A stretch of DNA of 64,000 nucleotides from Escherichia coli. GTDB taxonomy: Bacteria > Pseudomonadota > Gammaproteobacteria > Enterobacterales > Enterobacteriaceae. The DNA lies in NCBI RefSeq assembly GCF_048403405.1, contig NZ_CP183129.1, one strand, 5' to 3'. This document shows positions 12,001-12,887 of this stretch, in pieces. How positions within the stretch are numbered: the stretch's first letter is position 1; the number at the start of each line of letters is the position of its first letter. Position numbers: made by a program.

Positions 12001-12887
12001 TATGCTCAAACAGTGGTAGCCCGGAACCGCTAGATAACCCCACGGTGACCAGTACCGCGCGGTTTTCCGCTTTCAGCTGATCCAGGGTAAATGTGTTACC
12101 GATTTCGTTATTGCACTTAATGGTCACGCCCATTTTTTCAATACGGGCGATTTCTGCATCCAGTACTGATTGCGGTAACCGGAATTGCGGAATGCCGTTA
12201 CGCAACCAGCCACCGGGTTGTGCTTCTTTCTCATAGATCGTGACGTCATAACCCTGGTTTGTCAGCGTCACACTGGCCTGCAATCCGGCAGGACCTGCGC
12301 CAATAATGGCGACTTTGCCGAGCGTTTTAGTACCGGGCTGATAAATTTCCATCCCAGTTTGTTGTTCAAAATCAGTAACAAAACGCTGTAAGCGACCGAT
12401 ATCAATGGGAGTATCAACACCGGCACGGGTACAACCGCTTTGGCATAATTTCTCCGTCGGGCACACTCTGGCACAAACGGCACCGAGGGCATTATTTTCA
12501 CGAATTGTCTCGGCAGCGCCTTTAAAATTACGAAAGTAGATTGAGCGAATAAATTTCCCCGGATCGGTCTGTGCCGGGCAAGCCTGACTACAGGGGGCGT
12601 CATGGCATAATAAACAGCGAGAGGCTTCTTTAATCGCCAGTAACGGTGTAAAAGCCAGAGTGAGTTCATCCAGATAATTTTGTTGCGGCATGTGATCTTC
12701 CTTAATGCTATGAGTAATTAAGGCGAACGCTAAATAAATATTGCGTGCTGATATTAAGGCTATGCGCGTGGGGAAATTTAAACTGTGAAAGGATTCACAA
12801 ATAGCTGCGGTTCAGAATGTTATATCCGCAGCTTATTGAGTGAAGTAATAATTATTCTCAATAATTAACAGAAAAGAGAAAATATTA

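What the first reader, a model, noticed from the sequence alone, without database searches (positions are those of the whole stretch)
12784..12836. Perfect CRP palindrome followed by a hairpin upstream of preT-preA
TGTGAaaggatTCACA (12784-12799) is a perfect-half-site CRP box about 100 bp upstream of preT, suggesting catabolite control of the dihydropyrimidine dehydrogenase operon. An adjacent inverted repeat (agctgcgg...ccgcagct, 12802-12836) may be the terminator of the upstream yeiS-sanA transcript or part of the regulatory region.
Basis: seen in the sequence. Interest (0 to 1): 0.3.

Follow-up and report, generated by a model that had tools for sequence, protein, structure and literature searches.

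The report
Known CRP site at preTA promoter
The palindrome is the already catalogued cAMP-CRP activator site of the E. coli preTA (yeiTA) dihydropyrimidine dehydrogenase operon, and the neighbouring hairpin is most likely the 3'-end hairpin of the upstream sanA-yeiS transcript, so the finding is real but ordinary.

Summary
Both features exist. TGTGAAAGGATTCACA lies at 12784-12799. An 8-bp inverted repeat lies at 12803-12810 / 12826-12833 with a 15-nt loop. The window is E. coli, and all local genes are on the minus strand in the order cdd, sanA, yeiS, preT, preA.

The CRP box is centred 100.5 bp upstream of the preT ATG. It is already known. RegulonDB lists it as a CRP activator site of yeiTA at -57.5, and Shimada et al. 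2011 recovered it by genomic SELEX-chip. I found it invariant in 25 loci from about six enterobacterial genera.

My alignment adds one refinement. An invariant hexamer, TAGCCT, sits 21 nt (20 nt in one locus) downstream of the box. That is where the known class II CRP promoters mglB and cdd, in this same window, carry their -10 hexamers. This suggests CRP at -41.5 rather than -57.5, but no TSS data were reachable.

The hairpin is stable and single-copy. Its stem is conserved with one compensatory change. Citrobacter has a different hairpin at the same place. Five loci that lack yeiS have no such hairpin yet keep the CRP box. It therefore probably serves as the sanA-yeiS 3' end or terminator. 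It is not a canonical intrinsic terminator, because the loop is long and the U-tract weak.

A Fur box further upstream matches published Fur activation of preTA. Interest is low.

The parts
12784..12799 (.). CRP box core TGTGA-N6-TCACA. The 22-bp site is about 12781-12802 and its centre is 12791.5.
   Evidence: sequence and chance expectation. (PWM score 12.9 bits). (RegulonDB and SELEX-chip entries for the same site in K-12). (a perfect core in 25 of 27 loci).
12803..12833 (-). GC-rich hairpin AGCUGCGG / 15-nt loop / CCGCAGCU. It lies 51 nt downstream of the yeiS stop codon and 3 nt upstream of the CRP core. Flanking A-rich and U-rich stretches extend the stem to 12798-12842.
   Evidence: fold, z = -5. 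(single copy in 5422 of 5426 E. coli genomes). (98% of cells paired, one compensatory C-G to U-A change in E. albertii). (a different hairpin at the same place in Citrobacter). (absent from loci that lack yeiS).
12757..12762 (-). Invariant hexamer TAGCCT, the candidate -10 element of a class II CRP-dependent preT promoter. This is an inference.
   Evidence: present in 25 of 25 loci, 21 nt after TCACA in 24 and 20 nt in 1, while the spacer sequence varies. (mglB TATGAT and cdd TAAACT lie at the same offset from their CRP centres).
12749..12750 (-). Transcription start predicted if the promoter is class II (CRP at -41.5 or -42.5). The RegulonDB value of -57.5 would instead put the start at about 12734.
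   Evidence: Inferred. No TSS data were reachable.
12846..12860 (.). Fur-box-like palindrome. The minus strand reads TGAGAATAATTATTA, 12 of 14 matches to the 7-1-7 motif TGATAATnATTATCA.
   Evidence: the only match with at most 2 mismatches in the window, against 0.17 expected. (invariant in 7 Escherichia sequences). (Beauchene 2015: Fur ChIP-seq peak at the preT promoter, and Fur raises preTA expression and PpreT-lacZ activity).
12885..13124 (-). yeiS, the last gene of the sanA-yeiS operon. Its transcript would end at or near the hairpin.
   Evidence: (sanA-yeiS described as a two-gene operon). (transcription unit TU0-13537, sanA-yeiS).
11453..12691 (-). preT (yeiT), the first gene of the regulated preTA operon. 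preA follows at 10224-11459.
12700..12723 (-). Leader stem CCUUAAU-N10-AUUAAGG, which pairs with part of the preT Shine-Dalgarno sequence.
   Evidence: repeat I5. (conserved across genera; Pseudocitrobacter keeps the pair through G-U). (the fold is not more stable than shuffles, z = 0.23).

Best explanation
The yeiS-preT intergenic region is the control region of the preTA operon.

The palindrome at 12784-12799 is the cAMP-CRP binding site that activates preTA when glucose is absent. This is a database-listed and SELEX-confirmed fact. From conservation and geometry I infer that CRP most likely works here as a class II activator. It would be centred at about -41.5, overlap the -35 region and contact RNA polymerase directly. 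The invariant hexamer TAGCCT (12762-12757) would serve as a weak, activator-dependent -10 element, and transcription would start near 12750.

The GC hairpin immediately upstream (12833-12803 on the minus strand) belongs to the preceding sanA-yeiS transcript, not to preTA regulation. It most likely forms in RNA and marks or stabilises the 3' end of that transcript. It may be a weak intrinsic terminator, with the tail AUUUGUGA overlapping the CRP box flank. Alternatively it may be a protective hairpin left after Rho-dependent termination.

A Fur box about 60 bp upstream of the CRP centre accounts for the published Fur activation of preTA.
For: For the CRP site:
- Binding and the activator role are on record.
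- The core is perfect and rare by chance.
- Exactly one perfect core lies upstream of preT in 25 loci from Escherichia, Citrobacter, Pseudocitrobacter, Pluralibacter, Kluyvera and another enterobacterial genome, whatever gene lies upstream.
- It is present once per genome in 5422 of 5426 E. coli genomes.

For the class II geometry:
- TAGCCT is invariant and at a fixed 21-nt (once 20-nt) spacing, although the spacer sequence varies.
- The class II promoters mglB (RegulonDB -41.5) and cdd (-42.5) carry their -10 hexamers at the same offset.
- All length variation lies downstream of TAGCCT. Box-to-ATG distance ranges from 99 to 131 nt, and there are insertions of a dispersed ERIC-like repeat.

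For the hairpin:
- It is stable, z = -5, and unique in the genome.
- The stem is conserved while the loop varies. There is one compensatory change and some G-U changes.
- Citrobacter has a hairpin of different sequence at the same position, -14 to -15 kcal/mol.
- All 20 loci with yeiS have such a hairpin, at -13.5 to -17.8 kcal/mol. The 5 loci without yeiS keep the CRP and Fur-like boxes but lack it.
- sanA-yeiS and preTA are treated as separate transcription units.
Against: - RegulonDB places the site at -57.5, not -41.5. I could not see the evidence behind that value.
- K-12 has TATTAT at an offset that would fit class I at -61.5.
- TAGCCT is a poor -10 element, with only T-12, A-11 and T-7 matching.
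- The hairpin has a 15-nt loop, and only 4 of the 8 bases after the stem are U. The terminator scan did not call it.
- Covariation support is thin: 1 compensatory pair, and 54 of 500 shuffles do as well.
- The association between yeiS and the hairpin rests on few independent lineages.
- No 3' end for yeiS appears in the supplements of Adams 2021 or Yan 2018 that are held.
- Kim 2012 reports only a 2-read TSS inside yeiS, 228 nt upstream of yeiT.
Confidence: 0.75

Rival explanations
1. CRP acts at this promoter as a class I-type activator. It would be centred at about -57.5 to -61.5 and contact the alpha-CTD from upstream of the -35 region, as the RegulonDB position implies. TAGCCT would then be conserved for another reason, such as the -35 region or another factor.
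For: RegulonDB gives -57.5 for yeiTA. K-12 has the 5/6 hexamer TATTAT at p50-55 (nucleotides counted downstream from the CRP centre). That would put the start at p62 and CRP at -61.5 (sequence). Citrobacter is about 10 bp longer between box and ATG, which could keep the helical phase.
Against: That -10 candidate is not conserved, even in the window strain, which has CAATAT or AATATT. Box-to-ATG distances of 99, 100, 102, 104, 107-109, 117-121 and 131 nt do not keep the helical phase. ERIC-like insertions land at about p58, next to that proposed -10 and TSS. A position of -57.5 is itself off the usual class I face. The invariant TAGCCT at fixed spacing is better explained by class II.
Confidence: 0.3
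2. The inverted repeat is a DNA operator for a dimeric regulator of preTA, such as a pyrimidine-responsive repressor or activator bound next to CRP, and not an RNA hairpin.
For: It lies between the Fur box and the CRP box, inside the region that Fur and CRP use. It has perfect 8-bp dyad symmetry.
Against: Both arm sequence and arm spacing differ between Escherichia (8-bp arms, 15-nt gap) and Citrobacter (7+5-bp arms, 5-nt gap). The repeat is absent from yeiS-less genera that retain the CRP box, the Fur-like box, TAGCCT and the leader. Changes that keep pairing include G-U pairs, which matter only in RNA. The papers I searched mention no regulator for such a site.
Confidence: 0.1
3. The hairpin, the CRP palindrome (which also folds as a small RNA hairpin followed by GUUUAAAUUU) and bound CRP together set how much sanA-yeiS transcription reads through into preTA. 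This would work as an attenuator or a roadblock, so that part of preTA expression comes from upstream.
For: The stem ends 3 nt from the CRP core, so the termination zone and the CRP footprint overlap. The transcript folds into two tandem hairpins. The terminator features are weak. Kim 2012 assigned yeiT a TSS inside yeiS, with 2 reads.
Against: There is no direct evidence. Databases treat the units as separate. The CRP box is conserved where no yeiS or hairpin exists, so its primary role does not depend on the hairpin.
Confidence: 0.1
4. The palindrome is a chance match with no function.
For: The PWM score alone is reached about once per random 64 kb.
Against: The exact core is expected 0.03 times per window. 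It is invariant across about six genera while its flanks diverge. It is SELEX-chip bound and listed in RegulonDB.
Confidence: 0.01

Closest known systems
RegulonDB CRP site of the yeiTA (preTA) promoter, E. coli K-12 (ECK120035029/ECK120035030), also recovered by SELEX-chip in Shimada et al. 2011 (PMC3105977)
   Same: It is the same locus and the same site. K-12 reads TGTGAATCTTTTCACA and the window strain TGTGAATCCTTTCACA, a single spacer substitution. The flanks are the same, including ...gcagctattTGTGAA....
   Different: The site itself does not differ. My geometry analysis suggests a position of -41.5 rather than the listed -57.5, which remains unverified.
Class II CRP-dependent promoters mglB and cdd, both in this same window
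   Same: The -10-type hexamer begins 21 nt after TCACA (p30-35 counted from the CRP centre). It reads TATGAT at mglB, TAAACT at cdd and TAGCCT at preT. cdd and preTA both act in pyrimidine salvage and catabolism.
   Different: TAGCCT is a weaker -10 element. preT has a single CRP site and no CytR-type tandem arrangement as at cdd. The TSS is not mapped in any data I could reach.
Rho-independent (intrinsic) terminators
   Same: A GC-rich stem on the coding strand, 51 nt after the stop codon of the last gene of an operon. An upstream A-rich stretch is complementary to a downstream U-rich stretch.
   Different: The loop is 15 nt, and only 4 U occur in the 8 bases after the stem (AUUUGUGA). The scan did not call it. 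In Citrobacter the equivalent hairpin has no adjacent U-tract at all.
Fur-activated preTA promoter (Beauchene et al. 2015, PMC4676285)
   Same: Same promoter region. There is a Fur ChIP-seq peak, and Fur raises preTA RNA and PpreT-lacZ activity, mainly under anaerobic conditions. The Fur-like box at 12846-12860 is a plausible binding site.
   Different: That paper does not give the site sequence in the text I could read. Assigning the box to the peak is my inference.

Membership tests
cAMP-CRP (CAP) binding site | Two-fold symmetric 22-bp site with the core TGTGA-N6-TCACA | tested here: met
   Both half-sites are perfect at 12784-12799. The PWM score of 12.9 bits falls in the upper third of 149 SELEX-chip boxes.
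cAMP-CRP (CAP) binding site | Physical binding of cAMP-CRP | tested here: met
   Tested through the literature only. A genomic SELEX-chip peak lies between yeiS and yeiTA with this box (Shimada 2011, Table S3). I found no in vivo ChIP entry for preT in the Latif 2018 supplement that is held.
cAMP-CRP (CAP) binding site | Located upstream of a promoter, at a position from which CRP can activate | tested here: met
   The site is intergenic, 100.5 bp upstream of the preT ATG on the correct side. A conserved -10-like hexamer lies at the class II offset. RegulonDB lists the site as an activator site.
cAMP-CRP (CAP) binding site | cAMP- or CRP-dependent expression of the target in vivo | not testable with these tools
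   RegulonDB lists 'activator', but the primary paper could not be read. No crp-mutant expression data for preT were found.
Class II CRP-dependent promoter | CRP site centred near -41.5 relative to a mapped transcription start | tested here: inconclusive
   The geometry to the conserved TAGCCT fits. However, no TSS is available, and RegulonDB gives -57.5.
Rho-independent terminator | Stable GC-rich stem on the transcribed strand, downstream of the last gene of an operon | tested here: met
   An 8-bp stem with 6 G-C pairs. It folds at -15.7 kcal/mol with the extension, z = -5, and lies 51 nt after the yeiS stop.
Rho-independent terminator | Short loop (about 3-8 nt) | tested here: not met
   The loop is 15 nt. 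The scan did not report it.
Rho-independent terminator | U-rich tract immediately after the stem | tested here: not met
   The tail AUUUGUGA has 4 U in 8 bases, below the scan threshold of 5. The Citrobacter equivalent is followed by CUCAAACU.
Rho-independent terminator | Mapped RNA 3' end at the tract | not testable with these tools
   No yeiS 3' end appears in the supplements that are held. The Dar & Sorek 2018 and Conway 2014 supplements are not held.
Fur box | Match to the 7-1-7 / 19-bp Fur consensus, with Fur occupancy | tested here: met
   12 of 14 matches to TGATAATnATTATCA (consensus recalled from memory). It is the only such match in the window, against 0.17 expected. A Fur ChIP-seq peak lies at the preT promoter. 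The exact position of the peak is not available.

The most novel reading that the evidence does not exclude
The sanA-yeiS 3' hairpin and the CRP site could form one composite element. The U-rich tail of the weak terminator is the flank and first half-site of the CRP box. Bound cAMP-CRP would then act as a roadblock or insulator that sets read-through from sanA-yeiS into preTA. It would do this while also activating a class II promoter whose position has been mis-assigned as -57.5 in databases.
Probability: 0.1. Interest if true: 0.35.

Novelty: already known. Interest (0 to 1): 0.12.

Why it matters
PreTA inactivates 5-fluorouracil in gut E. coli, so its regulation has some practical interest. 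CRP control of preTA is already in RegulonDB, and Fur control has been published. This check adds three things. The site is conserved across enterobacterial genera. The promoter may be class II with an unusual -10 hexamer, TAGCCT. The adjacent hairpin belongs to the upstream yeiS transcript. None of this changes the accepted picture.

Tried and rejected
Literature searches and look-ups that led nowhere:
- The likely primary source for the RegulonDB entry (Zheng et al. 2004, NAR) is not held. Neither are Hidese 2011 and Thomason 2015.
- Searches for preT, preA or yeiT together with CRP, cAMP or catabolite found only Shimada 2011 and irrelevant papers.
- The preTA drug-metabolism papers say nothing about promoters. 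They report only that expression is higher under aerobic conditions.

TSS and 3'-end data:
- Kim 2012 has only a 2-read TSS inside yeiS.
- The supplements of Adams 2021 and Yan 2018 have no entry by gene name. Yan 2018 was also searched by coordinate prefix and had none.
- The supplements of Conway 2014, Dar & Sorek 2018 and Beauchene 2015 are not held.
- The Latif 2018 ChIP-exo supplement has no preT entry.

Other checks:
- Rfam gave only a PrrF hit at 19 bits (gathering threshold 90, E = 0.61), which is chance.
- The dispersed-repeat idea for the hairpin is rejected, because it occurs once per genome.
- A CytR-type tandem CRP arrangement is rejected, because each locus has only one core.
- The leader hairpin that pairs with the Shine-Dalgarno sequence is no more stable than shuffles.

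Full report
**Observation**

The window is E. coli chromosome. A 1-kb query around the finding matches 5424 of 5426 complete E. coli genomes, several of them at 100%. All genes near the finding are on the minus strand. They are cdd 13996-14880, sanA 13127-13846, yeiS 12885-13124, preT 11453-12691 and preA 10224-11459.

Its centre, 12791.5, lies 100.5 bp upstream of the preT ATG. The inverted repeat is agctgcgg at 12803-12810 and ccgcagct at 12826-12833, with 15 nt between the arms. It extends imperfectly to 13-nt arms.

**Is it more than chance?**

The exact core TGTGA-N6-TCACA is expected 0.03 times in this window and occurs twice. The other copy is the mglB CRP site. With one mismatch allowed there are 4 matches against 1.8 expected. 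These are the galS, mglB, preT and cdd sites.

I built a PWM from 149 CRP boxes in Table S3 of Shimada et al. 2011. It scores the site at 12.9 bits, which is 5th in the window and rank 50 of 149. First-order Markov sequences of 64 kb reach that score about once, so the PWM alone would not prove function. Several other top hits in the window were in the training list, so their ranking is partly circular.

**What is already known**

- Shimada et al. 2011 (PMC3105977) list yeiT, the former name of preT, among the CRP targets in RegulonDB that genomic SELEX-chip also recovered.
- Their Table S3 places a peak between yeiS and yeiTA, with the box TGTGAAAAGATTCACA at 2.23195 Mb.
- Their Table S4 reproduces the RegulonDB entry 'yeiTA activator -57.5 aaacgcagctattTGTGAATCTTTTCACAgtttaaattcaaa'.
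- K-12 differs from the window strain by one spacer base.

The CRP box and its assignment to preTA are therefore established knowledge. I could not read the primary source behind the RegulonDB entry.

**Conservation**

I collected preT loci from other genomes. Exactly one perfect core lies upstream of preT in 25 of 27 loci. These come from Escherichia species, the Citrobacter freundii complex, C. amalonaticus, Pseudocitrobacter, Pluralibacter, Kluyvera and another enterobacterial genome. The two loci without it are a Clostridia homologue and an atypical Salmonella contig, where preTA sits next to an autotransporter gene. Within E. coli the segment is single-copy in 5422 of 5426 genomes.

**Promoter geometry (my inference)**

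I aligned the stretch from the box to the ATG across the genera. This shows an invariant hexamer, TAGCCT, 21 nt after TCACA in 24 loci and 20 nt in one. The 21-nt spacer varies in sequence.

All length variation lies downstream of TAGCCT. The box-to-ATG distance ranges from 99 to 131 nt. Three Escherichia lineages also carry 70-170-bp insertions of a dispersed repeat (median 5 copies per genome) that resembles ERIC.

Two known class II CRP promoters in this same window have their -10 hexamers at exactly this offset from the CRP centre. These are TATGAT at mglB and TAAACT at cdd. TAGCCT keeps T-12, A-11 and T-7. This points to CRP at about -41.5 and a start near 12750.

RegulonDB gives -57.5, which would place the start near 12734. 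K-12 also has a TATTAT that would fit -61.5, but that hexamer is not conserved, and the spacing from the box to the ATG does not keep helical phase. No usable TSS data could be reached. I rate class II at about 0.55 and class I at about 0.3.

**The hairpin**

- On the minus strand it reads AGCUGCGG, a 15-nt loop, then CCGCAGCU. It starts 51 nt after the yeiS stop and ends 3 nt before the CRP core.
- It folds at -15.7 kcal/mol with the flanking A/U extension, z = -5.
- It is unique in the genome.
- Among 8 Escherichia sequences the stem is 98% paired. There is one compensatory C-G to U-A change, in E. albertii, and some G-U changes, while the loop varies. Statistically this is weak, because 54 of 500 shuffles do as well.
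- Citrobacter has a hairpin of different sequence and geometry at the same position.
- The 20 loci with yeiS all carry a strong hairpin, at -13.5 to -17.8 kcal/mol. The 5 loci without yeiS keep the CRP box, the Fur-like box, TAGCCT and the leader, but lack such a hairpin.

These points argue that the hairpin serves the sanA-yeiS transcript, which is described as a separate two-gene unit. They argue against a DNA operator for preTA.

It is not a canonical intrinsic terminator. The loop is 15 nt, the tail AUUUGUGA has 4 U in 8 bases, and the scan did not call it. It is either a weak terminator or a protective 3' hairpin left after Rho-dependent termination. No mapped 3' end was found.

**Wider context**

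Upstream of the hairpin lies TGAGAATAATTATTA (12846-12860). It matches 12 of 14 positions of the 7-1-7 Fur motif, is the only such match in the window (0.17 expected), and is invariant in Escherichia. Beauchene et al. 2015 report a Fur ChIP-seq peak at the preT promoter, and report that Fur raises preTA RNA and PpreT-lacZ activity.

On the minus strand the region therefore reads, in order:
1. yeiS stop
2. Fur box
3. yeiS hairpin
4. CRP box
5. TAGCCT
6. variable leader
7. Shine-Dalgarno sequence
8. preT

**Verdict**

The CRP site is already known, and the hairpin is an ordinary 3'-end element of the upstream operon. The only new points are the class II geometry, which conflicts with the database position, and the comparative evidence on the hairpin. 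Interest is low.

Noticed in passing
window 12846-12860: A Fur-box-like palindrome, TGAGAATAATTATTA on the minus strand, lies between the yeiS stop and the hairpin. It is invariant in Escherichia, and Fur-like sequences occupy the equivalent place in the other genera. It fits the published Fur ChIP-seq peak and Fur activation of preTA (Beauchene 2015).
   Followed up: partly
window 12757-12762 (minus strand TAGCCT): This hexamer is invariant in 25 loci at a fixed 21-nt distance from the CRP core, the offset at which mglB and cdd carry their -10 hexamers. It implies CRP at -41.5, which conflicts with the RegulonDB value of -57.5.
   Followed up: yes
L003 about 2788-2958, L004 and L006 (between TAGCCT and the preT Shine-Dalgarno sequence; the equivalent window position is about 12734): An insertion of 70-170 bp of a dispersed repeat containing AAGTGACTGGGGTGAGCG, which resembles ERIC/IRU. 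It has a median of 5 places per E. coli genome. It sits in the preT leader of E. albertii, an Escherichia sp. and E. coli E69. In 465 E. coli genomes at least one place covers 80% or more of the element.
   Followed up: partly
window 12700-12723 (and 12753-12759): A leader stem, CCUUAAU-N10-AUUAAGG, pairs with part of the preT Shine-Dalgarno sequence and is conserved across genera, with a G-U pair in Pseudocitrobacter. A second CCTTAAT copy overlaps the TAGCCT region in E. coli. The fold is no more stable than shuffled sequence (z = 0.23).
   Followed up: partly
L014, L024, L025, L026, L027, L023: yeiS is absent between sanA and preT in Pseudocitrobacter, Pluralibacter, Kluyvera and one other enterobacterial genome. 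C. amalonaticus has a different upstream gene. One Salmonella contig has preTA next to an autotransporter gene, with no CRP box and a different leader.
   Followed up: partly
window 594-609, 31916-31931, 24239-24254: These CRP-PWM hits score 11.6-13 bits and are not in the part of the SELEX list that I read. AGTGAATATCATCACC at 594 differs by one base from the second galS site at 5221. The other high scorers correspond to listed sites: galS at 5136 and 5221, mglB at 6281, cdd at 14940 and dusC/yohJK at 16150.
   Followed up: no
window 12731-12872 (minus strand): A weak Rfam match to PrrF, a Fur-regulated Pseudomonas sRNA, at 19 bits against a gathering threshold of 90 (E = 0.61). It spans the Fur box, the hairpin and the CRP box, and is almost certainly chance.
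   Followed up: no
K-12 coordinate 2231827 (U00096.2), inside yeiS: Kim et al. 2012 assign yeiT a TSS 228 nt upstream of its ATG, supported by only 2 reads. This hints at a start within yeiS and low-level transcription running through the hairpin into preT.
   Followed up: no
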